Virus record (IMG/VR): IMGVR_UViG_2698536341_000022
Coordinates: 1 to 33,070 of that record
Reading direction: 5' to 3' (one strand)
DNA length: 33,070 nt
DNA from: a virus
Taxonomy: Duplodnaviria > Heunggongvirae > Uroviricota > Caudoviricetes
In this document: piece after piece, positions 1-13,373 of the stretch
Position numbering within the stretch: the stretch's first letter is position 1
Layout: every line of letters starts with the position of its first letter
The notes under the pieces: model-generated
Database searches by the model: none
What the model was told of the DNA's origin: nothing
The model's input: only the letters and a program-made list of their open reading frames with translations
Translations under genes and position numbers: made by a program

Positions 1-1053
1 TTACGGGGTAATGCCAACCGCTGCCGCCACTTTGTCGCCACTTGGCAGCGTTGCCAGAGGATTGAAACGGAGCGCCGTTTCCAGATGATCCGGTGCCAGA
101 TGTGCGTAACGCATAGTCATTTTTATATCGTGGTGTCCGAGAATTTTTTGTAAGGCCAGAATGTTTCCACCCGACATCATGAAGTGCGCCGCAAACGTAT
201 GGCGCAGAACGTGTGTGAGTTGACCGCGAGGGAGTACGATAGACGTTTTTTCCATCACGGATAAAAATTGAAAATAGCAGTCTGTGAAGAAATTGAACCC
301 ATCAAGCGCCATGATCTCTTCGTAAAGCTCTTTACTGATAGGGATGCTTCTGTTTTTCTTCCCCTTCGTTCTGACAAAGGTAATTCGGTATTTGGTCACC
401 TGTGAGCGGGTAAGATTTACGGCTTCACGCCAGCGTGCGCCTGTGCTTAAGCATATCTTAACTACCAGTGCCAGAATTGGGTCCTGACGTTTGCAATCAG
501 CCAGCAATTCAACAATCTGCTCATGGGTAAGCCATGCCATCTCTTTTTCTGCGATGGTGAATTTTCGCATGTTCTCCAGTGGGTTCGGATACGACCATTC
601 GCCCAGACGGGATAGTTCGCTAAAAACACTACTTAGATAGCTTTGCTCCAGGTTAATGGTGACCGGGCTTGCTCCTTTCTTCCATTTCTCGCTGAAGTAG
701 ATCTCGCCTGTCAGGCGTTTATCTCGATAGTGGGCAAACATTTTAGAGGTGAGATCGGTTGCAAGAGGATTGCCCAGAGCGTCAACCATCAACAGCAATT
801 TGTCATAGACATGCTGCCCAGCTGTCAGAGATTTACCATGTAGTTTGAACCATAGCTCAACCACGTCTTTCAGTGTTCGACGATCCACTGATTCACCCAG
901 CCAGGGCTTTGCTTCGGTTTCTTCCATCGTGTGGCGCTCAAAAGCCAGTGCTTCGCCTTTGGTGACGAATTGTTTACGCACACGACGCCCACTTCGTCCG
1001 GCGGGGTAACATTCGCAAAGCCATTTCCCAGTGGTGAGTTTTCGTACTGCCAT
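1..1053 (-). CDS. int: Tyrosine-type site-specific integrase, P2/186 family (350 aa); stop codon at window positions 1-3
   Basis: Track ORF 1..1209(-); N-terminus MAVRKLTTGKWLCECYPAGRSGRRVRKQF matches my recollection of P2/186 integrases, so start taken at ATG 1053 (Met53 of the ORF). C-terminal region HVLRHTFAAHFMMSGG...MRYAHL is typical of tyrosine recombinases. Confidence 0.9.
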   Translation of the reverse strand: MAVRKLTTGKWLCECYPAGRSGRRVRKQFVTKGEALAFERHTMEETEAKPWLGESVDRRTLKDVVELWFKLHGKSLTAGQHVYDKLLLMVDALGNPLATDLTSKMFAHYRDKRLTGEIYFSEKWKKGASPVTINLEQSYLSSVFSELSRLGEWSYPNPLENMRKFTIAEKEMAWLTHEQIVELLADCKRQDPILALVVKICLSTGARWREAVNLTRSQVTKYRITFVRTKGKKNRSIPISKELYEEIMALDGFNFFTDCYFQFLSVMEKTSIVLPRGQLTHVLRHTFAAHFMMSGGNILALQKILGHHDIKMTMRYAHLAPDHLETALRFNPLATLPSGDKVAAAVGITP

Positions 1054-1241
1054 AAAAAATGCCCTCCAGTAGAGAGCATTTTCACTGTATGTATAACCAG
1101 TGTCAATGTATGAAATCCTACGACCATACATCTCACTGAAGCCATAATTAAGTTGGCTATTCTTTTTGCTATGTGAGCATGTAACTTTTGCGGTTAACCT
1201 GCGGCTCATTTTTATTTTAGACGCAGATATAAAAGCAAAAG

Positions 1242-1433
1242 TTATCGTGAGTTTTTAGTACAGATTTTTTTGGATTTACTAATAGTTCCATCATTGCAAA
1301 CGAATTTGCCATCTGAGGTACAGTGAGAAACACCTCCCTTTTTCCCTGAGCAGGGATAATTTCTAGCATAGGTAGTTAGTGGGTTTAATAACAAAGAACA
1401 TGACAAAACCACAAAAAATACCTTACCAAGCAT
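1242..1433 (-). CDS. Small predicted secreted cysteine-containing protein (63 aa), encoded between cI and int
   Basis: Track ORF; strong RBS (GGAGGAAAC) upstream of ATG 1433; N-terminal hydrophobic signal-like segment [14 protein letters not shown] followed by a Cys/Lys/Gly-rich mature part; AT-rich relative to flanking phage genes. Confidence 0.55.
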
Positions 1434-1448
1434 AGTTTCCTCCCGGTA

Positions 1449-2018
1449 CTATTTAACATACTTGACTGTTAAACTTATAATTTTACCAATTATTTCAATG
1501 TCTTCTATCTTGCATTCGAAGGCTCTGTTTCCACCCTCGACGAAGATTCTTCCACCGGGTAAACGAGTAATGTCACGGATAGTTATTTCGCCATCAATAC
1601 TTATTACCCATTTACCATCACGTATATCATCAAATTCTTTATCACAAATAAATTCAGAATTGTTATCTGTGATGACAAAAGGTTTTTTAAACGTAGAGGG
1701 TAGAAATCCCTTATCAAAAATATAAAAACCGTCTTTCTGCAATGCTCCATCAGACAATAAATATTTTTCTACTTCTATAGTATTTGTATTTGCTGATGCT
1801 TGCTTTGAACCATGCCCTGTTGTTAGCCAATTAAGCGAGGTGCCCGTTTCAAGGGCGCACTGGATTACCCAATCTGCTGGAAAAATATCACGCATATAGC
1901 GCGTTGCCATGGTGCTCTTAGAAACACCTAAATGATCACATAGAGCCTGACGGGTACCGAACCCATATGCTTCAACTAAACGTTCTATGGCTTTCTTACC
2001 GCCGCTATTGAAATCCAC
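1449..2018 (-). CDS. cI: Immunity repressor CI (phage 186 type)
   Basis: Track ORF 1449..2105(-); segment RLVEAYGF...CALETGTSLNWLTTG resembles my recollection of the 186 CI N-terminal domain; position between int and apl. Start uncertain: GTG 2018 has a GGAGGA RBS; the maximal ORF starts at GTG 2105 with no RBS. Confidence 0.75.
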   Translation of the reverse strand: MDFNSGGKKAIERLVEAYGFGTRQALCDHLGVSKSTMATRYMRDIFPADWVIQCALETGTSLNWLTTGHGSKQASANTNTIEVEKYLLSDGALQKDGFYIFDKGFLPSTFKKPFVITDNNSEFICDKEFDDIRDGKWVISIDGEITIRDITRLPGGRIFVEGGNRAFECKIEDIEIIGKIISLTVKYVK

Positions 2019-4005: not shown

Positions 4006-4232
4006 TGGCTGATGCAATGGATCTCGTACAGCAGCGCGTTGAAGAAGAACGCCAGCGCCATATCCGTGCAGCCCGTGCCAAATCACCGGGCGTGTCACGC
4101 GTACTTTGCATTGAATGTGAAGCGCCAATTCCGCCAGCACGACGCCGCGCCATTCCGGGAGTGCAGCTTTGCATTACCTGTCAGGAAATCGCAGAACTGA
4201 AAGGCAAACATTACAACGGAGGTGCTGTATGA
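4005..4232 (+). CDS. TraR/DksA-family C4 zinc-finger protein (75 aa)
   Basis: CxxC...CxxC arrangement (CIECEAPIPPARRRAIPGVQLCITCQ) typical of phage TraR/DksA-like zinc fingers; translationally coupled on both sides. Confidence 0.75.
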   Translation: MADAMDLVQQRVEEERQRHIRAARAKSPGVSRVLCIECEAPIPPARRRAIPGVQLCITCQEIAELKGKHYNGGAV

Positions 4233-5086
4233 GCACCATCCTGAAATGGGCGGGAAATAAAACCGCCATTATGCCAGAACTGAAAAAATACCTTCCTGCT
4301 GGCCCGCGACTGGTTGAACCTTTCGCGGGTTCCTGTGCTGTGATGATGGAAACGGATTATCCCAGCTATCTGGTTGCGGATATTAATCCTGATTTAATCA
4401 ACCTCTATAAAAAGGTTTCCGCTGATTGTGAATCGTTTATATCTCGCGCCAGAGTTTTATTTGAGATCGCAAACAGGGAGGTGGCTTATTACAACATAAG
4501 GCAGGAGTTTAACTGCTCAACTGAAATTACTGATTTCATGAAAGCGGTATATTTCCTGTATCTTAATCGTCACGGTTACCGTGGTTTATGTCGCTATAAC
4601 AAGAGCGGGCATTTCAACATCCCCTACGGTAATTATAAAAATCCGTATTTCCCTGAAAAAGAACTTCGCACATTTGCAGAAAAAGCCCAGCGAGCAACGT
4701 TTATCTGCGCCAGCTTTGATGAAACGCTGGCGATGTTGAAGGCGGGAGATGTGGTGTATTGCGATCCGCCGTATGACGGTACGTTTTCCGGCTATCACAC
4801 TGATGGTTTCACTGAAGATGACCAGTATCACCTGGCATCCGTTCTTGAACATCGGTCATCAGAAGGACATCCAGTCATTGTTTCTAACAGTGACACATCC
4901 CTGATCCGTTCGCTGTATCGCAATTTTACTCACCACTATATCAAGGTAAAACGCAGCATCGGTGTGGCAGCTGGCGAGGGTAAATCAGCAACAGAAATCA
5001 TTGCTGTTTCCGGGCCGCGCTGCTGGATGGGATTTGATTATTCGCGTGGCGTGGATAGTTCTGCCGTGTACGGAGTACGTGCATGA
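4229..5086 (+). CDS. dam: DNA adenine methyltransferase, Dam-like (285 aa)
   Basis: ATG 4229 with GGAGG RBS; motifs LKWAGNK, EPFAGS and the catalytic DPPY tetrad are hallmarks of N6-adenine (GATC-type) methylases; ATGA overlaps with flanking genes. Confidence 0.85.
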
Positions 5087-7497
5087 GTCATGCCGATATG
5101 AACAACTGCTGCGGCTTTAACGAGGCTGCTGCAGCATTCTCATGGAACAGCCCGAAAAAGGCCATTAACCCTTATCTGGACCCGGCGGAAGTTGCGCCGG
5201 TTTCTACGCTTTCAAACCTGATCACTCTGTACGCTGCCGATAACGAGCAGGAACAGTTGCGCCGCGAGGCACTGAGTGATCAGGTCTGGGAGCGTTATTT
5301 CTTTAATGAATCACGTGATCCTGTCCAGCGCGAAATGGAGCAGGATAAGCTCATTAGCCGGGCAAAGCTGGCGCATGAGCAGCAGCGTTTTAATTCAGAC
5401 ATGGTCATTCTGGCGGACGTCAACGCCCAGCCTTCCCATATCAGCAAGCCGCTGATGCAACGTATTGAATACTTCAGCAGCCTGGGCAAGCCAAAGGCTT
5501 ATTCCCGCTATTTACGTGAGACGATTAAGCCATGTCTGGAACGACTGGAGCATGTACGCGACAGTCAGCTATCTGCATCTTTTCGCTTTATGGCAAGCCA
5601 TGAAGGGCTGGACGGCCTGCTGATCCTGCCTGAAATGAGTCAGGATCAGGTGAAACGCCTGTCCACCCTGGTAGCTGCGCATATGAGTATGTGCCTTGAT
5701 GCAGCTTGTGGTGATTTGTATGCCACCGATGACGTTAAGCCAGAAGAAATCCGCAAGACATGGGAAAAGGTGGCAGCGGAAACCCTGCGTCTGGATGTCA
5801 TCCCACCTGCGTTTGAGCAACTCCGTCGGAAAAGAAACCGCCGTAAACCCGTGCCCTATGAACTCATTCCGGGTTCGTTGGCGCGTATGTTGTGTGCCGA
5901 CTGGTGGTATCGGAAATTATGGAAGATGCGTTGTGAATGGCGGGAAGAGCAGTTGCGTGCTGTCTGCCTGGTCAGCAAAAAAGCATCCCCCTATGTCAGC
6001 TATGAAGCCGTGATGCATAAACGTGAGCAGCGCCGTAAGTCGCTGGAGTTTTTCCGTTCTCATGAACTGGTGAACGAAGACGGCGACACGCTGGATATGG
6101 AAGATGTGGTAAACGCCAGCAGCAGCAACCCGGCGCATCGCCGCAATGAGATGATGGCCTGTGTTAAAGGTCTGGAGCTTATCGCGGAAATGCGCAGTGA
6201 CTGCGCCGTTTTCTACACTATCACCTGTCCGTCGCGTTTCCATTCCACGCTCAATAACGGCAGACCCAACCCGACCTGGACAAACTCGACGGTAAGACAA
6301 AGCAGCGACTATCTGGTCGGCATGTTTGCTGCATTTCGTAAGGCGATGCACAAAGCCGGATTGCGCTGGTATGGCGTGCGGGTGGCTGAGCCGCATCATG
6401 ACGGTACAGTTCACTGGCACCTGTTGTGTTTTATGCGCAAAAAAGACCGCCGCGCCATCACTGCATTACTGCGTAAGTTTGCCATCCGTGAAGACCGCGA
6501 GGAGCTGGGCAATAACACTGGGCCGCGCTTTAAGTCTGAGTTGATTAACCCGCGCAAAGGAACGCCGACAAGCTACATCGCGAAATATATCAGTAAGAAC
6601 ATTGACGGGCGTGGTCTGGCTGGCGAGATCAGCAAGGAAACGGGTAAATCTCTGCGTGATAACGCTGAATACGTTAATGTCTGGGCGTCTCTGCATCGTG
6701 TTCAGCAATTCCGCTTCTTTGGCATTCCGGGGCGTCAGGCTTACCGTGAACTGCGATTGCTGGCTGGTCAGGCGGCAAGGCAACAGGGTGACAAAAAAGC
6801 AGGTGCTCCGGTACTGGATAACCCGCGCCTTGATGCCATTCTGGCTGCTGCTGATGCTGGCTGTTTTGCCACCTACATTATGAAGCAGGGCGGCGTGTTG
6901 GTTCCCCGCAAATATCACTTGATCAGAACCGCTTATGAAATCAACGAAGAGCCGACAGCCTATGGCGATCACGGCATTCGTATTTATGGCATCTGGTCAC
7001 CCATTGCAGAGGGCAAGATCTGCACTCATGCAGTGAAGTGGAAAATGGTTCGTAAGGCCGTTGACGTTCAGGAGGCGGCAGCCGACCAGGGCGCTTGCGC
7101 CCCTTGGACTCGTGGCAATAACTGTCCCCTTGCTGAAAATTTGTACCAACAAGGGAAAGACAAATCAGCTGATGGAGATACCAGAACTGATATCACCCGT
7201 ATGGATGACAAGGAGTTGCACGATTACCTGCACAGTATGAGCAAAAAAGAGCGCCGGGAACTGGCAGCAAGGTTACGCCTGGTGAAACCGAAACGGCGTA
7301 AAGACTACAAACAGCGAATTACAGATCATCAGCGACAGCAGCTCGTGTATGAACTGAAGTCCAGGGGATTTGATGGCAGCGAGAAAGAGGTCGATTTACT
7401 CCTTCGCGGCGGCAGTATTCCGTCAGGAGCAGGCCTGCGTATCTTCTATCGGAACCAGCGTTTGCAGGAAGATGATAAGTGGCGGAACCTGTATTAA
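5083..7497 (+). CDS. A: Replication initiation protein A (rolling-circle nicking endonuclease, P2 gpA / 186 RepA family, 804 aa)
   Basis: Size, position after the early operon and the HxH-containing segment (VHWHLLCF) fit P2 A-type replication proteins. Confidence 0.85.
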
Positions 7498-8226: not shown

Positions 8227-10086
8227 TTAGTGAGGGCTGGTTATTACGTAGTCGCTCTGGTCATCCTCTCCCAGCCTCTCAGGTATTAAATCGTTGAAGG
8301 AAATAGTATTACTCTTAGGTTTTTCTTCAATTGGAAGTTCAGCTACCCTTAATTTGAGCGGCATGGGGCAGACGATACCACTAAAAATACAGGTTCCTGT
8401 AGATAGCGTTGGAATCGACTCTTCAGTCAGTCGATCTATATATGATACTGATTTTTCAATTGCGTACAGATCATTCTGATTAATAAGGCGATGAATAAAA
8501 TAATTGTGTGCTTGGGATATGATTGTCGACGATATATCATTAGGGCGTTGACTGGAAATTGTGATAAAAACTCCAAATTTTCTCCCCTCCTTTATGATTT
8601 CCTCAAAAGTTTCCAGACGATAATCTCTCCAACTTTCCGTTTCCCGAAAAGAAGTATTAGACAAAATATTGTGGGCTTCATCTATAATGATGTGCAGTGT
8701 AGATTTCTCTGTAGACATTTTCTTCATATTGTAAGCCCACTTGGCTATCAAAAGAGGAAGCGTTTTTTTCATGGTTATATTAACCATATTTAGATTCACA
8801 ACCGTGAAATTATGTTCACCCCAAAAGTCAGACTGTCCGGAAGTATCAAATATTTTGGCTATATCTTTACGGTTAGCACTCATTCTATTTATAACTGGTG
8901 AAATATGTTCAGGGTTAGACTTGTTAGATAAATATTCCTGTATTAACTGTAAGTACATAAAGTCCAACAGTTCTTCAATCATATCAGTTTTAAATAAAAA
9001 ATTGCTTGCAAGACTGAATAGATAGGAGCGCTCAGTATCAGCTTCTGTATTGAAAATACTACCACCCCTCAATTTCCATTTATATGCAGTTGAATGATAC
9101 TCAAGATCAGATATAAGTTCTGGGTCATCTTTGAAAATTGGGCTAAGAAACTGATTTATAGTATCGCATTTGGGTTTGTCGCTACTAAAGAGATTTTGTC
9201 TGACTTTTTTCTTCAGGATATTGCGCATAAACTCAAGAGGATTATCAGCAGTCATCACTTTCTTGCGAAACTCAAGAACTCTCTTCAGGAAAGGTTTCTG
9301 TGTTTTGTCTGTTGCATCGGTTAGAACTGAGAGCATATCATGCTCAAGTAGAACCTCTCTGGGTAGAGGAAGTTTGTCACCATTTGCATGGTGCGTGTTG
9401 AGATTATAAACCGTCTTCTCGTCAGTAATACAGCGTGGGGCAGTATATTCTCCATTAAAGTCGAATAGAATAAATTTGCATCTTTCACTAAAGTGGTTGC
9501 CGAGAATATGTTTAACTTGGGCAATACCTGCTTTGTATAGCGCGGCTAGGGTATTTGACTTTCCGCTGCCTGTATTACCGAAAATGGCAATGTGGGAATT
9601 AATAAGACCATTGATTGGTAGTGCAATTTCAATATCTTCAAGATCTGTACGAGTAAACCTCATTACAGTTTCGTCTGCATTAGCTATCTGATGAACCGTT
9701 TGTATCATCTCTTCAGTTACCACGAAGACTTCATTGCCGATGAGAGGTAGTTCACGCGAACCACCAATGAAGCAACCAGTACGATCAATGTAACCCGTAA
9801 GAGTAGAGGTCAGGTATCGCCGATATCGCCAGGCATCACTGCCGCTCCCAGCGAGATGTTTTTCCTCAATGATTCGTTCCGCTTCAACCTTGCCGATCAG
9901 GCTCATGAAACCTTTTTTGATCTCAATGAAGCTACCCACTGATACATTTCTTAGAACTTTTCCCTGATAAAACAAGTCACTGAGATTTTTGTTTTTATCG
10001 ACCAAAATTGTCACAGCGCGTCCAGAAACCTCACAGACTTCGCCTATACGGAGCACCGCTTCCTCTTCAGTAAAATGCCTGCTCAT
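8227..10086 (-). CDS. herA: HerA-like P-loop ATPase/helicase of the SIR2-HerA anti-phage system (619 aa)
   Basis: Walker A GNTGSGKSN and Walker B IIIDEAHN in a DUF87/HerA-FtsK-like arrangement; ATG 10086 overlaps the SIR2 stop (ATGA) with a GGGAGG RBS. The track ORF extends to GTG 10107. Confidence 0.85.
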   Translation of the reverse strand: MSRHFTEEEAVLRIGEVCEVSGRAVTILVDKNKNLSDLFYQGKVLRNVSVGSFIEIKKGFMSLIGKVEAERIIEEKHLAGSGSDAWRYRRYLTSTLTGYIDRTGCFIGGSRELPLIGNEVFVVTEEMIQTVHQIANADETVMRFTRTDLEDIEIALPINGLINSHIAIFGNTGSGKSNTLAALYKAGIAQVKHILGNHFSERCKFILFDFNGEYTAPRCITDEKTVYNLNTHHANGDKLPLPREVLLEHDMLSVLTDATDKTQKPFLKRVLEFRKKVMTADNPLEFMRNILKKKVRQNLFSSDKPKCDTINQFLSPIFKDDPELISDLEYHSTAYKWKLRGGSIFNTEADTERSYLFSLASNFLFKTDMIEELLDFMYLQLIQEYLSNKSNPEHISPVINRMSANRKDIAKIFDTSGQSDFWGEHNFTVVNLNMVNITMKKTLPLLIAKWAYNMKKMSTEKSTLHIIIDEAHNILSNTSFRETESWRDYRLETFEEIIKEGRKFGVFITISSQRPNDISSTIISQAHNYFIHRLINQNDLYAIEKSVSYIDRLTEESIPTLSTGTCIFSGIVCPMPLKLRVAELPIEEKPKSNTISFNDLIPERLGEDDQSDYVITSPH

Positions 10087-11126
10087 CTCGAGCCTCCCAG
10101 ATAGCACGTGATAATGTTATTCATTACCGGAAAATCAACATTTCTTCCCGGCCGATAAATAATCTCTACGTTTGAGTAATCCCGAAATTTCTCCATAAAG
10201 CCGTTAACACTGGCCTCATCGAAAGCAAAGATCAGTAGCTTCAGGGTGGCGTTGCGCAGGGCTTTTTTAGTTATCGTTTCAATGTGCTCATCAGCAAACG
10301 AGAACCCAAAGACAATTAGTAAAGTTGCTTCTTTATCAAGCTCGTTGGAATAGGTTCTCAGTAAATCATAATAAACGTTCTGTAGTAGAGTCTCTTTAAA
10401 CTTCTCCTTACGTGGAAGAATAAGTGCATGAGCAAGTACCCATCCTTTCATTTCGGCTAGGGTGGGAAAGTCAAGCGGCTTAATATCTGCAATACGATAA
10501 ATGATTTTCCCTTTAGAATGCTGCCAAGAGAGCGAACCATGAAGTTTTATAAGGTTAACAGTAGGAAGCTCAACTTTATAATTATACAGATTTCCGGTTG
10601 CACTTACAGAATGATTAAAGCTACCCGCATCAAATTCCGCATCTCCCAAAATACTTGCTCTTCTATTGAATCCATCATTAAAAAGAATATTGTTATTACG
10701 TGTGGCAGCTTCTTCGATGAATAAATCATAATTAGTTGTAAAAACGTTAATACGCCTCGGAAGTAGGCCAGTTCGGCGGCGGGTCAGTATCTTTTCCAGT
10801 GAAGACATAAATGCATCATAATTTGCACGGGTACATTCCAAATCGGTGATCACCTGAGGTGCGAAGGGGGTGCCGTAGCCGCGCTTCAACATGCATTCAT
10901 GAGGTAGCCAAACATCTGACAAAAAGTCAGCTGCCATCCTTAAGTATTCATCTTCCTGTTCATCATTAATAAGCTGCTGAAGATCCGTTTCGATTGTCCC
11001 CAGTACTTTAATCGCTGGGAGGGATGCACCTGATCCGATGAGAAAGTTAATGTTAGCTGACTGAAATATCCGCTCTAAGTAGTCTCGGTCACTATCGTTA
11101 CCGTAGTATGCGCGCTTGACTGCCAT
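10083..11126 (-). CDS. SIR2-like NAD-consuming domain protein of the SIR2-HerA anti-phage system (347 aa)
   Basis: Motifs FLIGSGAS, TTNYD and KLHGS are hallmarks of defence-type SIR2 domains; ATG 11126 with AAGGA RBS (track ORF starts at TTG 11141); directly upstream of and overlapping herA. Confidence 0.85.
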   Translation of the reverse strand: MAVKRAYYGNDSDRDYLERIFQSANINFLIGSGASLPAIKVLGTIETDLQQLINDEQEDEYLRMAADFLSDVWLPHECMLKRGYGTPFAPQVITDLECTRANYDAFMSSLEKILTRRRTGLLPRRINVFTTNYDLFIEEAATRNNNILFNDGFNRRASILGDAEFDAGSFNHSVSATGNLYNYKVELPTVNLIKLHGSLSWQHSKGKIIYRIADIKPLDFPTLAEMKGWVLAHALILPRKEKFKETLLQNVYYDLLRTYSNELDKEATLLIVFGFSFADEHIETITKKALRNATLKLLIFAFDEASVNGFMEKFRDYSNVEIIYRPGRNVDFPVMNNIITCYLGGSR

Positions 11127-11550
11127 CTTATCCTTCCACAAAACATTGGATTAGTCTGTAATTTATTTAATCTTAACGCCGAGCTCAATACTTTAACATC
11201 ACTTCTTCTGGCGATTGCTATGAGCCCTTCTTGATAAAAAGTTCGATCGGGAAACTGATCCTTTATGCCACAAGTTTTCTAGCTATCCTCAAAAAATTGG
11301 TGTTAAAACTGTGCCAACAAAGTTGCAAGGTTCGCTTCTCGCTCACAGCGAACTTTCATCTTTGTAAACCCGTATGATTCGCTTTTCAGCAGTCATTCAG
11401 ATACGGATTTACGCTTCCCTTGGCAGCGCATGACTATGACGCATGAGATCGCATGATCGTTTGAGGATCGTTTTTGCTGAAGTCAGCCAGAACTGGCGTG
11501 CTTTTGCTTATGTCATGCAGGTGCATGAAAACCACTACATAAAGCGGGCA

Positions 11551-11569
11551 GGCGTGGCGGGGATACGAG
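11551..11569. other. Candidate cos (cohesive end) site, 186/P2-like
   Basis: GGCGTGGCGGGGA matches the first 13 nt of the 19-nt cohesive end as I recall it for 186 (GGCGTGGCGGGGAAAGCAT); the last 6 nt diverge. It lies in a 580-bp non-coding stretch. Recalled from memory, not searched. Confidence 0.35.
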
Positions 11570-11721
11570 CGCGCGCTAAGTCATATAAGAGTTATATATT
11601 GATTTGATTGCTGGACATGCATACAGTATCGCTCTATCATCTAATAAATCTTAGAGTATTTGACAATGTTTGGATAAAATGGAACCTAACTTATTCATAA
11701 TCCGCTAAACAGGGATGTCAG

Positions 11722-12636
11722 ATGCCATACCAATTGGTAGAGCTTAGCCCCGTAGCTAACGATCTTGAACAGTTAGGAACCAAAGAGAAGTTTTGGTTCT
11801 ATTTCTCCGATGACACTGTAAATTTGCAGTTGTTTAAGTACTCTAGGCCAGGTACTGGCGAGCATTGGTCTGAAAAGTGTGCTGCTGAGTTATGTCATTT
11901 GCTTAACATTCCACATGCTAGCTATGATTTGGCGCGATACAATGGTCGATTCGGTGTGGTGACTCAGAATATCATTCCATCTGGTTTCCGGATGGTAATG
12001 GGAAATGAAGTGCTTCACAGTTCGACATTCGATTATCCTGGGTCTTTACAAGCCGGGGAAAAGCCGGTAAGGGTCAGAGAACACACTGTCACAAGGGTAT
12101 TGGGTTGTTTAGATAGGGAATCTATCAAGCCTCCTCCGAGTGTATATGATCTAACCGGGCTAAATGCAGCAGATGTATTTTGTGGATATTTGATGCTCGA
12201 TGCACTTGTGAGTAATCAAGATCGCCATCATGAAAATTGGGCGATCATGCTTAACAATGAAACTGGTGAGCAGTTTTTGTGTCCAACATACGATCATGCC
12301 GCTAGTTTAGGAAGGGAGATGTTAGATGATGAGCGTAACGAACGGCTTAATACTAAAGATAAAAATCGACAAATCCCATGTTTTGTAAGAAAAGCTCGCT
12401 CTGAGCTATTCAAAGCAAAAACTGATAAAAAGCCCTTGCTGACCGTTGAAGCATTTCAACATGCAGTTGAAGGGAGAGTTGCCGCTCGCGACCATTGGTT
12501 AGGTAAGTTGAGCGTTTTAACAGAAGATTCCATTACAGATGTGTTTAACCAAGTGCCTTCATCGTGTATATCCGACAGTGCACGTAGATTTGCAACGTTA
12601 ATGGTAATGGAAAATCGCAGAAGGTTACTAGAATGA
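11722..12636 (+). CDS. HipA/HipT-like Ser/Thr kinase-fold protein (304 aa); first gene of a candidate two-gene defence/toxin module
   Basis: P-loop-like LGTKEKFWF near the N-terminus, catalytic-loop-like SNQDRHHENW and a downstream PTYDH motif, in the order seen in HipA_C kinases; lacks the long HipA N-domain (HipT-like length). Stop overlaps the next start (ATGA). Confidence 0.6.
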   Translation: MPYQLVELSPVANDLEQLGTKEKFWFYFSDDTVNLQLFKYSRPGTGEHWSEKCAAELCHLLNIPHASYDLARYNGRFGVVTQNIIPSGFRMVMGNEVLHSSTFDYPGSLQAGEKPVRVREHTVTRVLGCLDRESIKPPPSVYDLTGLNAADVFCGYLMLDALVSNQDRHHENWAIMLNNETGEQFLCPTYDHAASLGREMLDDERNERLNTKDKNRQIPCFVRKARSELFKAKTDKKPLLTVEAFQHAVEGRVAARDHWLGKLSVLTEDSITDVFNQVPSSCISDSARRFATLMVMENRRRLLE

Positions 12637-13373
12637 CTAATACAAACTCCGTTTACGTCGCATGGCAGGCACCAGATACCAGAGACTGGCATGTTGTTGG
12701 TAACTTGCAAGAGCGCAAATCGGGGTATGTTTTCAGGTATACCAAAGGTGCTCTCAAATCTACTAAATTTACAAAGTTTAGCGGCATGAGTGATGTTCGT
12801 GAAACTTATGTTTCGGAAGAATTGTTTCCTCTTTTTAAAAATCGCCTTTTATCACCGAGACGTCCAGAGTATCCGAGTTTCATTAAATGGCTTGGATTTG
12901 AAGAAGATAAGGTAAATCCTATCGATATTCTTGCTCGCTCGGGAGGCTTACGAAGCACTGATCAGCTGCAGATTTTCAAAAAAATTGATGTTGATTCTGA
13001 TGGTAACTTTGAGCATTTTTTCTTCTTACATGGACTTGGTTACTTAAATAGCTTAGCTAATGCTCGTGTATCTGAATTGAAACCGGGGCAAATTTTGCGT
13101 CTTTGCTTGGATCTTCAAAATGAATACGATGGGGATGCTGTTGTCGTTCGTGCAGATAAACCAGCTGAAATCGTTGGTTACTGCCCTAGGTATTTAAGTA
13201 ATGATATCAAGAAGATGTTATTGGATGATCCAAAATCAATCACTTTAACGGTCGAAAAGATTAGCGATGATGCTCCTCATAACTATCGGTTATTATGTAA
13301 ATTATCAGGAGTACTAAGCCAAGCCTGTCAATCGACGCTGATTCCTCAGGATGAGTTTGAACCTATTGAGTAA
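12633..13373 (+). CDS. Protein with HipA-N/HipS-like N-terminal domain and C-terminal HIRAN-like domain (246 aa)
   Basis: N-terminal LFPLFKNRLLSPRRPEY resembles the HipA N-domain motif (F-x-N-L-L-P-E-G-x-x-R); C-terminal LKPGQILRLCLDLQNEYDGDAVVVRADKPAEIVGYCPRYLSNDIKKML matches the HIRAN signature (NPYD-x-NAI-x-V ... G-Y-x-P). Translationally coupled to the kinase gene. Confidence 0.55.
   Translation: MTNTNSVYVAWQAPDTRDWHVVGNLQERKSGYVFRYTKGALKSTKFTKFSGMSDVRETYVSEELFPLFKNRLLSPRRPEYPSFIKWLGFEEDKVNPIDILARSGGLRSTDQLQIFKKIDVDSDGNFEHFFFLHGLGYLNSLANARVSELKPGQILRLCLDLQNEYDGDAVVVRADKPAEIVGYCPRYLSNDIKKMLLDDPKSITLTVEKISDDAPHNYRLLCKLSGVLSQACQSTLIPQDEFEPIE

What the first reader, a model, noticed from the sequence alone, without database searches (positions are those of the whole stretch)
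1242..1433. Small secreted cysteine-rich ORF inside the lysogenic cI-int transcript (possible lysogenic-conversion gene)
A 63-aa ORF with a strong RBS, signal-peptide-like N-terminus and Cys-rich mature part lies between cI and int on the same strand. It is AT-rich. Genes here are expressed in the lysogen, the usual place for morons that change host surface or phage-resistance phenotypes.
Basis: inference. Interest (0 to 1): 0.4.

Follow-up and report, generated by a model that had tools for sequence, protein, structure and literature searches.

The report
Prophage copy of periplasmic YdcA protein
The 63-codon ORF is a real, strongly conserved gene just behind the repressor gene of a 186-like E. 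coli prophage; it encodes a tiny exported, disulfide-bonded, positively charged protein of the YdcA family, which is already annotated in databases and common in prophages but has no known function.

Summary
Window 1242-1433 (minus strand) is a 63-aa ORF. A GGAGG Shine-Dalgarno lies 5 nt before its ATG, and the ATG lies 15 nt after the cI stop. It has a Sec-type signal peptide (predicted cut A23|R24) and a 40-aa mature part with four invariant Cys, net charge +7 and 35% GC.

It is a true gene. It passes the curated NCBIfam YdcA model NF007463, carries Pfam PF27300, and shows pN/pS of 0.03-0.10. About 12% of complete E. coli genomes have it.

Phage 186 has nothing between cI and int. Relatives carry other cargo there (PD-Lambda-1, KAP NTPase). 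The YdcA gene itself recurs directly after cI in E. coli, Klebsiella, Enterobacter and Hafnia prophages, and, unannotated, in Haemophilus phage HP2. "Accessory gene of the lysogenic operon" is therefore supported, but no phenotype is shown.

Two leads:
- The domain matches the lobes of Legionella Dot/Icm Dis2.
- Elsewhere it is fused, after a signal peptide, to three unrelated secreted nuclease families.

My best guess is a periplasmic binding module for DNA or an envelope polyanion.

A terminator-like hairpin that also sequesters the int Shine-Dalgarno sits just before int. The cI transcript may therefore stop after this gene.

Overall this is ordinary to moderately interesting.

The parts
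1242..1433 (-). YdcA-family gene, 63 codons plus TAA stop
   Evidence: ORF list. NCBIfam NF007463 115.8 bits against cut-off 93. phrog_6000. Precomputed PF27300 on homologues. pN/pS 0.03-0.10.
1365..1433 (-). Predicted Sec/SPase I signal peptide (residues 1-23, [23 protein letters not shown])
   Evidence: Has n-, h- and c-region features. Ala at -1 is invariant and the residue at -3 is small in 29 homologues, while the rest of the leader varies. Hydropathy profile. Prediction only; no SignalP was run.
1245..1364 (-). Mature 40-aa cationic domain, [40 protein letters not shown], with four invariant Cys
   Evidence: Alignments A1, A3 and A4. pI 9.7, net charge +7. AF2 core pLDDT 83-91. Matches the Dis2 lobes.
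1439..1443 (-). Shine-Dalgarno GGAGG, 5 nt before the ATG
   Evidence: Read directly from the sequence.
1449..2018 (-). cI repressor (186 type). The identical gene is annotated with the GTG start at 2018 in RefSeq; the mechanical ORF runs to 2105
   Evidence: Pfam Phage_CI_repr and Phage_CI_C. RefSeq annotation of the identical gene. Its stop lies 15 nt before the ydcA ATG.
1..1053 (-). Integrase (350 aa; true start at 1053, not 1209)
   Evidence: Pfam and PHROG matches begin at residue 53 of the long ORF. RefSeq annotates 1053-nt int genes in identical prophages.
1055..1083 (-). 13-bp hairpin with a U-run ending 1 nt before the int ATG. Its 3' arm contains the int Shine-Dalgarno GGAGGG (1067-1062). 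It is both terminator-like and SD-sequestering
   Evidence: Fold of the 192-nt spacer: -59.8 kcal/mol, z = -5.4. Conserved upstream of different int genes, and replaced by a different hairpin of the same kind in vB_EcoM-813R9. Function is inferred.
1078..1106 (-). Sigma-70-like promoter TTGACA-17-GAAAAT upstream of int, overlapping the 5' arm of the hairpin
   Evidence: Consensus scan, 10 of 12 matches. Conserved in all six aligned sequences. A consensus match only.
1182..1244 (-). Long imperfect stem-loop that starts at the ydcA stop codon
   Evidence: MFE structure. Only partly preserved in E. coli variants and not part of the alifold consensus. Significance unknown.

Best explanation
The ORF is an accessory gene of the lysogenic operon of a 186-like (Peduoviridae) prophage.

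Expression (inferred from anatomy): it is transcribed with cI from the lysogenic promoter and translated from its own strong Shine-Dalgarno.

Processing (inferred from sequence, by analogy with Dis2): it is exported by Sec, cut after Ala23, and oxidised in the periplasm to a 4.3-kDa domain with two disulfides and net charge +7.

Family (shown): it is a bona fide member of the YdcA family (PF27300 / NF007463).

Mechanism (inferred): the domain is non-enzymatic and works as a stand-alone binding or tethering module for a conserved polyanionic or outer-membrane-proximal ligand. Candidates are DNA, LPS/phospholipid, or a peptidoglycan-associated complex. In other bacteria the same module follows the signal peptide of secreted nucleases, and it forms the two lobes of Dis2 under the outer membrane in the Legionella Dot/Icm core complex.

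In the lysogen it would add a constitutively made copy to the host's own YdcA, whose mature part is 70% identical. I expect an envelope-level, housekeeping-type benefit, such as the acid or organic-acid tolerance reported for chromosomal ydcA, rather than an arms-race defence.

My confidence by step:
- real, exported, lysogen-expressed YdcA-family protein: about 0.85
- non-essential accessory role: about 0.7
- binding-module mechanism: about 0.5
- ligand is DNA: about 0.35; an envelope component: about 0.35
For: Gene reality and family:
- NF007463 is above its curated cut-off; phrog_6000; PF27300 on homologues.
- 11 synonymous against 1 non-synonymous change.
- The exact protein occurs on at least 1000 contigs and in 628 of 5426 complete E. 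coli genomes.

Coupling to cI:
- A 15-nt gap with a strong Shine-Dalgarno, and no promoter or terminator between the two genes.
- In HP2 the homologue's ATG overlaps the cI stop.
- The 186 annotation shows that pL and pE drive cI and the downstream genes.

Accessory status:
- 186 has no gene between cI and int, and HP1 has orf4-orf1 there.
- Relatives hold PD-Lambda-1, KAP NTPase/PDC-S20, ClbS plus an IS, or a 349-aa ORF in the same slot.
- The integrase-primase interval is a reported minor defence hotspot of P2-like phages (PMC13586616).

Recurrence directly after cI: E. coli, Enterobacter, Klebsiella and Hafnia prophages, and across cI immunity types.

Export: invariant -1 Ala with a variable leader. 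Chromosomal YdcA is annotated as a periplasmic protein and described as predicted periplasmic (bioRxiv 10.1101/2024.02.12.579971).

Binding-module idea:
- Of 40 long family representatives, 3 carry Endonuclease_NS, 1 SNase, 1 PLD/NucT-like and 1 VasL, always C-terminal to the YdcA domain.
- Tandem 2-3x repeats occur.
- Domain net charge averages +3.8 over 190 domains.

Dis2 link:
- Profile against PDB: E = 1.8e-5 full length, 6e-3 for the mature part only.
- Foldseek top hit with both AF2 models, probability 0.92-0.96 and 38% identity.
- hhalign probability 80%.
- Both Dis2 lobes match by BLASTP, and a Dis2 homologue carries a precomputed PF27300 hit.
- Dis2 is disulfide-pinned and contacts DotK, DotC and DotD near the outer membrane (PMC8486379; PMC12716638).

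Fitness lead: an E. coli W ydcA deletion is sensitive to 300 mM 3-hydroxypropionate, and ydcA is said to be acid-induced (PMC7642389).
Against: - No expression, localisation or phenotype data exist for this gene.
- No SignalP run was possible.
- The ligand is inferred only from domain fusions, charge and the Dis2 analogy. The fusion partners are not all nucleases, and Dis2 itself is not known to bind DNA.
- The mature-only profile hit to Dis2 (E = 6e-3) sits just above unrelated Cys-rich LDL-receptor repeats.
- The stress phenotype of chromosomal ydcA rests on one growth experiment in one paper.
- No sequenced enterobacterial phage in the 50,697-record phage collection carries the gene. Its carriers may often be poorly inducible or defective prophages, such as those in CE10 and the E. 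coli B lineage.
- There is no PADLOC match.
Confidence: 0.55

Rival explanations
1. DNA-entry exclusion. The periplasmic cationic domain binds incoming DNA, or docks on a DNA-translocating envelope machine. It thereby lowers superinfection, conjugative entry or natural transformation, protecting the resident element from competitors or from being cured.
For: - It sits in the lysogenic operon, in a slot otherwise filled by defence genes (PMC13586616).
- It is carried by unrelated temperate phages of Haemophilus, Moraxella, Acinetobacter and Pseudomonas, and by Acinetobacter and Rhizobium plasmids, including a 3.9-kb MOBQ plasmid.
- The domain is fused to three secreted nuclease families.
- A homologous domain is a T4SS core-complex subunit.
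Against: - Strong purifying selection and about 70-75% identity across orders are unlike arms-race exclusion factors.
- Core-like chromosomal copies lie in housekeeping contexts.
- There is no PADLOC hit.
- The gene co-occurs with the variable defence cargo rather than alternating with it.
- E. coli and its relatives are not naturally transformable in the usual sense (background knowledge).
Confidence: 0.2
2. It is a component or adaptor of a defence cassette with the gene downstream of it, for example the KAP NTPase/PDC-S20, and is not an independent function.
For: A KAP NTPase starts 12 nt after the ydcA homologue in E. coli and Klebsiella prophages and matches PADLOC PDC-S20 over its full length.
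Against: - In the window, in Enterobacter and in many E. coli genomes the gene stands alone between cI and int.
- PDC-S20 is catalogued as a single-gene candidate.
- The YdcA protein is periplasmic, whereas KAP NTPases are cytoplasmic or membrane proteins.
Confidence: 0.05
3. It is a secreted antimicrobial peptide or bacteriocin: a cationic, disulfide-bonded, defensin-like 40-mer.
For: Size, net charge of +7 and two predicted disulfides.
Against: - A Sec leader delivers it only to the periplasm of a Gram-negative cell.
- There is no adjacent immunity or export gene.
- Chromosomal single-copy homologues are common.
- The domain occurs as an N-terminal module of larger enzymes.
Confidence: 0.03
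4. It is not a functional protein gene: a chance ORF, a decaying remnant, or merely a spacer for int expression.
For: It is short and AT-rich, older RefSeq annotations call it 'hypothetical protein', and it is unannotated in HP2 and in Acinetobacter phage Ab11510-phi.
Against: - pN/pS of 0.03-0.10.
- 16 invariant columns across 29 homologues from several orders.
- A curated HMM is passed.
- 457 family representatives at 50% clustering.
Confidence: 0.02
5. It is a lipoprotein anchored through Cys12 (VVLSC).
For: The leader contains V-L-S-C, which loosely resembles a lipobox.
Against: - Cys12 lies only 8 residues after the single Lys.
- It is not conserved: most homologues have no Cys in the leader, whereas the AxA-type site at -3/-1 is invariant.
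- Cleavage at Cys12 would leave a hydrophobic stretch on the mature protein.
Confidence: 0.02

Closest known systems
E. coli K-12-type YdcA (57 aa, between cybB and hokB; NCBIfam NF007462, Pfam PF27300)
   Same: Same architecture: signal peptide plus a single domain of about 37 aa with the [22 protein letters not shown] motif. The mature part is 26/37 identical, or 26 of the 40 aligned columns. Function is unknown; it is predicted to be periplasmic.
   Different: - The prophage copy belongs to a separate NCBIfam equivalog, NF007463. It scores 68.5 bits against NF007462, below that model's cut-off of 118.
- Its leader is unrelated.
- It has a 3-residue C-terminal extension.
- It is expressed from a phage repressor operon rather than from the acid/YdcI-linked chromosomal locus.
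Legionella pneumophila Dis2 (Lpg0823), subunit of the Dot/Icm T4SS outer-membrane core complex (PDB 7MUC/7MUD chain AN)
   Same: Each of the two Dis2 lobes carries the GG...C...G..VCN[DN]G..S motif. Dis2 is the best PDB hit by profile, by Foldseek and by hhalign, and a Dis2 homologue carries PF27300. It is periplasmic and disulfide-pinned (PMC8486379).
   Different: - Dis2 is a two-lobe protein with five disulfides, built into a 13-fold T4SS ring and contacting DotK, DotC and DotD.
- The prophage protein is a single lobe with no T4SS nearby.
- The Dis2 papers describe it as Legionellales-specific with no structural neighbours. The link is therefore not in the literature I could read.
Classical prophage morons and lysogenic-conversion genes (lambda bor/lom, P2 old/tin/fun; named from background knowledge)
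   Same: Dispensable relative to the reference phage 186, AT-rich, placed where it is expressed in the lysogen, and encoding an envelope-targeted product.
   Different: - It has no promoter or terminator of its own, being embedded in the cI operon.
- It shares its composition with cI.
- It has widespread chromosomal homologues.
- No phenotype is known.
Cargo of the cI-int (integrase-primase) slot in P2/186-like prophages: PD-Lambda-1 and KAP NTPase (PDC-S20)
   Same: Same slot, same strand, downstream of cI. The interval is reported as a minor defence hotspot (PMC13586616).
   Different: Those are large cytoplasmic ATPase or nuclease-type defence proteins that vary between prophages. The YdcA gene is small and periplasmic, stays fixed next to cI, and co-occurs with that cargo.
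Periplasmic or outer-membrane superinfection-exclusion proteins (T4 Sp, phi80/N15 Cor, T5 Llp; named from background knowledge)
   Same: Small envelope-located phage products made in the immune cell.
   Different: No sequence or family similarity was found (Pfam, PHROGs and PADLOC). Cor and Llp are lipoproteins. The YdcA family evolves under strong constraint.

Membership tests
YdcA family (Pfam PF27300; NCBIfam NF007463 / PRK10040.1-2) | Whole-protein HMM score above the curated cut-off | tested here: met
   NF007463 scores 115.8 bits against a cut-off of 93, E = 5.3e-34, covering residues 5-63. Close homologues carry a precomputed PF27300 hit. The local Pfam copy lacks PF27300.
YdcA family (Pfam PF27300; NCBIfam NF007463 / PRK10040.1-2) | Conserved motif P-C-S-G-x-K-G-G-x-x-x-C...F-V-C-x-D-G-x-x-S-x-S-K-x-x-C with four Cys | tested here: met
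   All 16 invariant columns of alignment A1 are present in the window protein.
YdcA family (Pfam PF27300; NCBIfam NF007463 / PRK10040.1-2) | N-terminal cleavable Sec signal peptide (periplasmic product) | tested here: inconclusive
   The sequence features and the invariant -1 Ala fit. No signal-peptide predictor or experiment was available.
Phage moron / lysogenic-conversion gene | Accessory: absent from close relatives of the phage | tested here: met
   186 has abutting cI and int. Phages with 97%-identical int carry other genes in the slot. HP1 and HP2 differ in the same way.
Phage moron / lysogenic-conversion gene | Own promoter and terminator flanking the insert | tested here: not met
   There is no promoter-like site in the 15-nt gap to cI and no terminator directly after the gene. 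The nearest terminator-like hairpin is the one just before int.
Phage moron / lysogenic-conversion gene | Base composition distinct from the neighbouring phage genes | tested here: inconclusive
   35% GC against 51% for the window, but the cI C-terminal half is 33%.
Phage moron / lysogenic-conversion gene | Expressed in the lysogen and changes a host phenotype | not testable with these tools
   Co-transcription with cI is inferred from anatomy only. No expression or phenotype data were available.
Dis2 (Lpg0823)-type domain | Sequence and profile similarity to the Dis2 lobes | tested here: met
   hmmsearch E = 1.8e-5 full length and 6e-3 for the mature part only. hhalign probability 80%. BLASTP matches both lobes at 4e-5 and 2e-4. 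A Dis2 homologue, P0228, carries PF27300.
Dis2 (Lpg0823)-type domain | Same fold as a Dis2 lobe | tested here: inconclusive
Dis2 (Lpg0823)-type domain | Two tandem lobes and membership of a T4SS core complex | tested here: not met
   The protein is a single lobe, and no T4SS genes lie in the window.
Bacterial lipoprotein | Conserved lipobox with Cys at +1 | tested here: not met
   Cys12 is not conserved and lies too close to the N-terminus.
Known anti-phage defence proteins (PADLOC-DB v2) | Match to any defence-protein model | tested here: not met
   0 families at E <= 0.01, whereas neighbouring-slot cargo in relatives matches PD-Lambda-1 and PDC-S20.

The most novel reading that the evidence does not exclude
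The YdcA domain is a periplasmic DNA-binding or DNA-traffic-associated mini-domain. Temperate phages place it in the repressor operon, and plasmids carry it, so that it is expressed constitutively and intercepts foreign DNA or interferes with DNA-translocating envelope machines. That would be a new, widely distributed class of entry, superinfection or transformation exclusion factor. The same fold would serve as a substrate or anchor module in secreted nucleases, and as Dis2 in the Dot/Icm T4SS.
Probability: 0.15. Interest if true: 0.65.

Novelty: new member of a known kind. Interest (0 to 1): 0.35.

Why it matters
About one in eight complete E. coli genomes, and prophages of Klebsiella, Enterobacter, Hafnia, Salmonella Typhi and Haemophilus, express or could express this mini-protein together with the phage repressor. 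Yet the whole YdcA family, including the core E. coli gene, has no known function.

The two leads found here give concrete, cheap experiments for a family that so far is only a name:
- Homology with the lobes of Legionella Dis2, which its describers treat as Legionellales-specific.
- Recurrent fusion to three secreted nuclease families.

If the domain binds DNA or an envelope polymer, that would explain a common prophage accessory gene. It would also annotate a T4SS subunit and several nuclease architectures at once. If it only duplicates a host stress protein, it is an ordinary fitness moron.

Tried and rejected
- Local Pfam-A has no model for the ORF. The only hit was a sub-threshold GULLO2 match at E = 0.075, which I ignored.
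- PADLOC gave no match. Rfam found nothing anywhere in the window.
I repeated it without them.
- The weak NCBIfam hit to lpg1681_fam (E = 0.11) was not pursued and is not significant.
- Name coincidences rejected: 'ydcA' of plasmid pS88 is a DNA methylase, 'ydcA' of the gonococcal genetic island is a toxin-antitoxin component, and B. subtilis YdcA is a rhomboid protease.
- The UniRef name 'Conjugal transfer protein' for the exact protein has no support in this locus.
- The lipoprotein reading was rejected.
- The terminator-like site on the + strand at 1188-1204 depends on G-T pairs, does not form on the coding strand, and was judged irrelevant.
- The overlapping 50-aa ORF at 1217-1369 in another frame is not supported, because substitutions are synonymous in the 63-aa frame.
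- The long stem-loop right after the stop codon (1182-1244) is not well preserved among variants.
- A DNA search could not recover chromosomal ydcA in most genomes because it is too divergent. I therefore did not establish how universal the chromosomal copy is.

Full report
**1. What is there**

The window opens with the 3' end of a tyrosine integrase on the minus strand. It continues with a 186-type immunity region: int (1-1053), a 188-bp spacer, the 63-aa ORF (1242-1433), cI (1449-2018), then divergently apl, cII and fil-like genes, a DNA methylase and gpA.

On the coding (minus) strand the cI stop TAG is followed by TACCGGGAGGAAACT and then the ATG. That gives a GGAGG Shine-Dalgarno with a 5-nt spacer, only 15 nt after cI.

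The product is [23 protein letters not shown]|[40 protein letters not shown]. The mature part is 40 aa with four Cys, 9 K/R against 2 D/E, and pI 9.7. GC content is 35.4% against 51.2% for the window, but the cI C-terminal half (33.2%) and the spacer (36.7%) are equally AT-rich.

**2. Is it a gene?**

Yes, on several independent grounds.

- It passes the curated NCBIfam equivalog NF007463 (115.8 bits against a cut-off of 93). It matches the K-12 YdcA model NF007462 below that model's threshold.
- It matches phrog_6000 at E = 1.9e-34.
- Its homologues carry precomputed Pfam PF27300 'YdcA'.
- The exact sequence is on at least 1000 contigs from E. coli, Salmonella Typhi and Klebsiella. Newer RefSeq annotations call it 'YdcA family protein'.
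- 628 of 5426 complete E. coli genomes carry it at 90% DNA identity or more.
- Against a 93.8%-identical allele there are 11 synonymous and 1 non-synonymous differences (pN/pS 0.03). Against a third allele the ratio is 0.09.
- An exhaustive profile search finds 457 representatives at 50% clustering, 270 of them at E <= 1e-10.

In a 29-sequence alignment the leader is free to vary apart from an invariant Ala at -1 and a small residue at -3. The mature domain has 16 invariant columns, including all four Cys. This is the signature of a cleaved Sec signal peptide followed by a constrained folded domain. The Cys in the leader is not conserved, so a lipoprotein is rejected.

**3. Genomic logic**

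In phage 186 the cI stop and the int start overlap. The annotated lysogenic operon (pL/pE) runs cI-int-orf69 to a terminator beyond attP. Relative to 186, the window therefore has an extra gene plus a 188-bp spacer.

Phages whose int is 96-97% identical to the window's carry different genes between cI and int:
- a 558-aa protein annotated 'chromosome segregation ATPase', which is PD-Lambda-1 by PADLOC;
- a 349-aa ORF.

In E. coli genomes the same cI-ydcA pair is followed by one of three arrangements:
- int directly;
- a KAP NTPase, which is PADLOC candidate PDC-S20;
- ClbS plus an ISL3 element.

A recent survey lists the integrase-primase interval as a minor defence hotspot of P2-like prophages, holding 8% of their systems (PMC13586616).

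The YdcA gene itself stays glued to cI. Homologues with unrelated leaders and 61-81% identity lie directly after cI in prophages of E. coli, Enterobacter, Klebsiella and Hafnia. In Hafnia one extra ORF intervenes. Across E. coli the block 'cI C-terminal domain + ydcA + spacer' is conserved at about 89-94% next to divergent cI DNA-binding domains and different integrases.

In Haemophilus phage HP2/S2 the cI is only 32% identical. Even so, an unannotated 60-aa homologue starts on the last base of the cI stop codon and is followed by orf1(S) and int. HP1 has four other small ORFs in that slot.

The domain also occurs:
- in the late regions of Moraxella and Acinetobacter temperate phages and in a Pseudomonas phage;
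- on Acinetobacter and Rhizobium plasmids, including a 3.9-kb MOBQ plasmid;
- as a stand-alone chromosomal gene, such as E. coli ydcA between cybB and hokB, and in housekeeping contexts elsewhere.

No enterobacterial phage isolate in the 50,697-record collection has it.

**4. What the protein may do**

The literature held here says only three things about E. coli YdcA:
- it is a 57-aa predicted periplasmic protein of unknown function;
- deleting it makes E. coli W sensitive to 300 mM 3-hydroxypropionate, and it is reportedly acid-induced through YdcI (PMC7642389);
- its mRNA rises 10.7-fold in a pnp mutant.

Two new leads came from the searches.

*First lead: Legionella Dis2.* The family profile's best PDB match is Dis2 (Lpg0823) of the Legionella Dot/Icm T4SS, at E = 1.8e-5. 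With the leader removed it is still first, at E = 6e-3, although unrelated Cys-rich LDL-receptor repeats follow closely.
- Dis2 homologues fetched with a Dis2 fragment show two lobes. Each carries GG...C/-...G..V/L-C-N-D/N-G-x-x-S. One of these homologues has a precomputed PF27300 hit. hhalign gives 80% probability, and BLASTP aligns both lobes.

I rate the homology at about 0.8. It supports a two-disulfide fold for each YdcA domain.

*Second lead: fusions.* Among 40 long family representatives the YdcA domain, always right after the signal peptide and followed by a Ser/Gly/Pro-rich linker, is fused to:
- Endonuclease_NS (3 representatives);
- SNase (1);
- a PLD/NucT-like nuclease (1);
- a VasL-like domain (1);
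- several unknown domains.

Tandem 2-3x repeats also exist. Net charge is positive in almost all of 190 domains, with a mean of +3.8.

The simplest reading is a small, non-enzymatic binding or tethering module for a conserved polyanionic ligand. The ligand could be DNA, as the nuclease substrate, or an envelope component, as an anchor. Very strong purifying selection, and about 70-75% mature-domain identity between phages of different orders, point to a conserved ligand. They argue against an arms race with particular phages.

**5. Transcript structure: a correction to the finding**

The 192-nt spacer RNA folds far better than shuffled controls (-59.8 against -37 +/- 4.2 kcal/mol, z = -5.4).

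Its last element is a 13-bp hairpin at 1083-1055. The 3' arm contains the int Shine-Dalgarno (GGAGGG) and ends in a U-run 1 nt before the int ATG. A sigma-70-like promoter, TTGACA-17-GAAAAT (1106-1078), overlaps its 5' arm.

This element is conserved upstream of several different int genes. In vB_EcoM-813R9 it is replaced by a different hairpin of the same design, AGCCCUC-loop-GAGGGCUUUUU.

My inference is that read-through from cI-ydcA is terminated, or int translation is masked. A transcript starting at the local promoter would lack the 5' arm and so free the Shine-Dalgarno. Co-expression of ydcA with cI is therefore very likely, but 'cI-int transcript' is uncertain.

**6. Verdict**

- The interpretation, a possible lysogenic-conversion gene, is partly supported. 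The gene is accessory and exported, and is likely made in the lysogen alongside the repressor. However, it belongs to an already catalogued family with chromosomal paralogues, it lacks moron-type signals of its own, and no phenotype is known.
- The best mechanism is a periplasmic binding module, either supplementing host YdcA (a fitness function) or, less likely, acting in DNA-entry exclusion.
- Novelty: a new member, and a newly documented context, of a known but uncharacterised family.
- Interest is moderate to low (0.35). It is raised somewhat by the Dis2 link and the nuclease-fusion leads, which make the family's function testable.

Noticed in passing
window 1055-1106 (minus strand): A 13-bp hairpin with a U-run ends 1 nt before the int ATG and contains the int Shine-Dalgarno. 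A sigma-70-like promoter overlaps it. The element is conserved upstream of different int genes, and vB_EcoM-813R9 has a different hairpin of the same design. It suggests that int is uncoupled from the cI transcript.
   Followed up: partly
L002 3420-3602 (Haemophilus phage HP2, NC_003315 2487-2669 minus strand); L004 3917-4102 (Acinetobacter phage Ab11510-phi): Clear YdcA-family genes are not annotated in these phage records. In HP2 the start codon overlaps the cI stop.
   Followed up: yes
PDB 7MUC/7MUD chain AN (Legionella Dis2); proteins P0228 and P0229: Dis2 is described in the literature as Legionellales-specific with no structural neighbours. It appears to consist of two YdcA-type lobes, and a Dis2 homologue carries a precomputed PF27300 hit.
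   Followed up: yes
proteins P0184, P0167, P0111, P0180 (family representatives): The YdcA domain is fused N-terminally, after a signal peptide and a linker, to three unrelated nuclease families: Endonuclease_NS, SNase and PLD/NucT-like. The genomic contexts could not be looked up.
   Followed up: partly
L007 1791-3467 (Escherichia phage vB_EcoM-813R9): The gene annotated 'chromosome segregation ATPase' in the cI-int slot is a full-length PD-Lambda-1 defence protein, E = 3e-120.
   Followed up: yes
L011 5198-6529 and equivalents in L009, L022: A KAP-family NTPase starts 12 nt after the ydcA homologue. It matches PADLOC candidate PDC-S20 over its full length and matches PifA weakly.
   Followed up: partly
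window 8227-13373: The gpA-portal hotspot of this prophage carries a complete SIR2-HerA defence pair (10083-11141 and 8227-10107, minus strand) and the two-gene PADLOC candidate PDC-M03, a HipA_C-like protein (11722-12636) plus a HIRAN-domain protein (12633-13373).
   Followed up: partly
window 1-1209 and 1449-2105: The mechanical ORFs over-extend both neighbours. The int start is at 1053 (350 aa). The identical cI is annotated from the GTG at 2018 (189 aa) in RefSeq.
   Followed up: yes
L001 (E. coli CE10) 4094-5851; L031 (E. coli B derivative): In CE10 the spacer between ydcA and int has taken up ClbS/DfsB and an ISL3 element, and the prophage is degraded. E. coli B-lineage genomes keep cI-ydcA-int in a defective prophage. 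These strains would be useful for expression data.
   Followed up: no
cluster of the exact 63-aa protein; L028 728-904: UniRef names the exact protein 'Conjugal transfer protein' with no visible basis. A 3.9-kb Acinetobacter MOBQ plasmid has a homologue immediately after a gene annotated TraD.
   Followed up: partly
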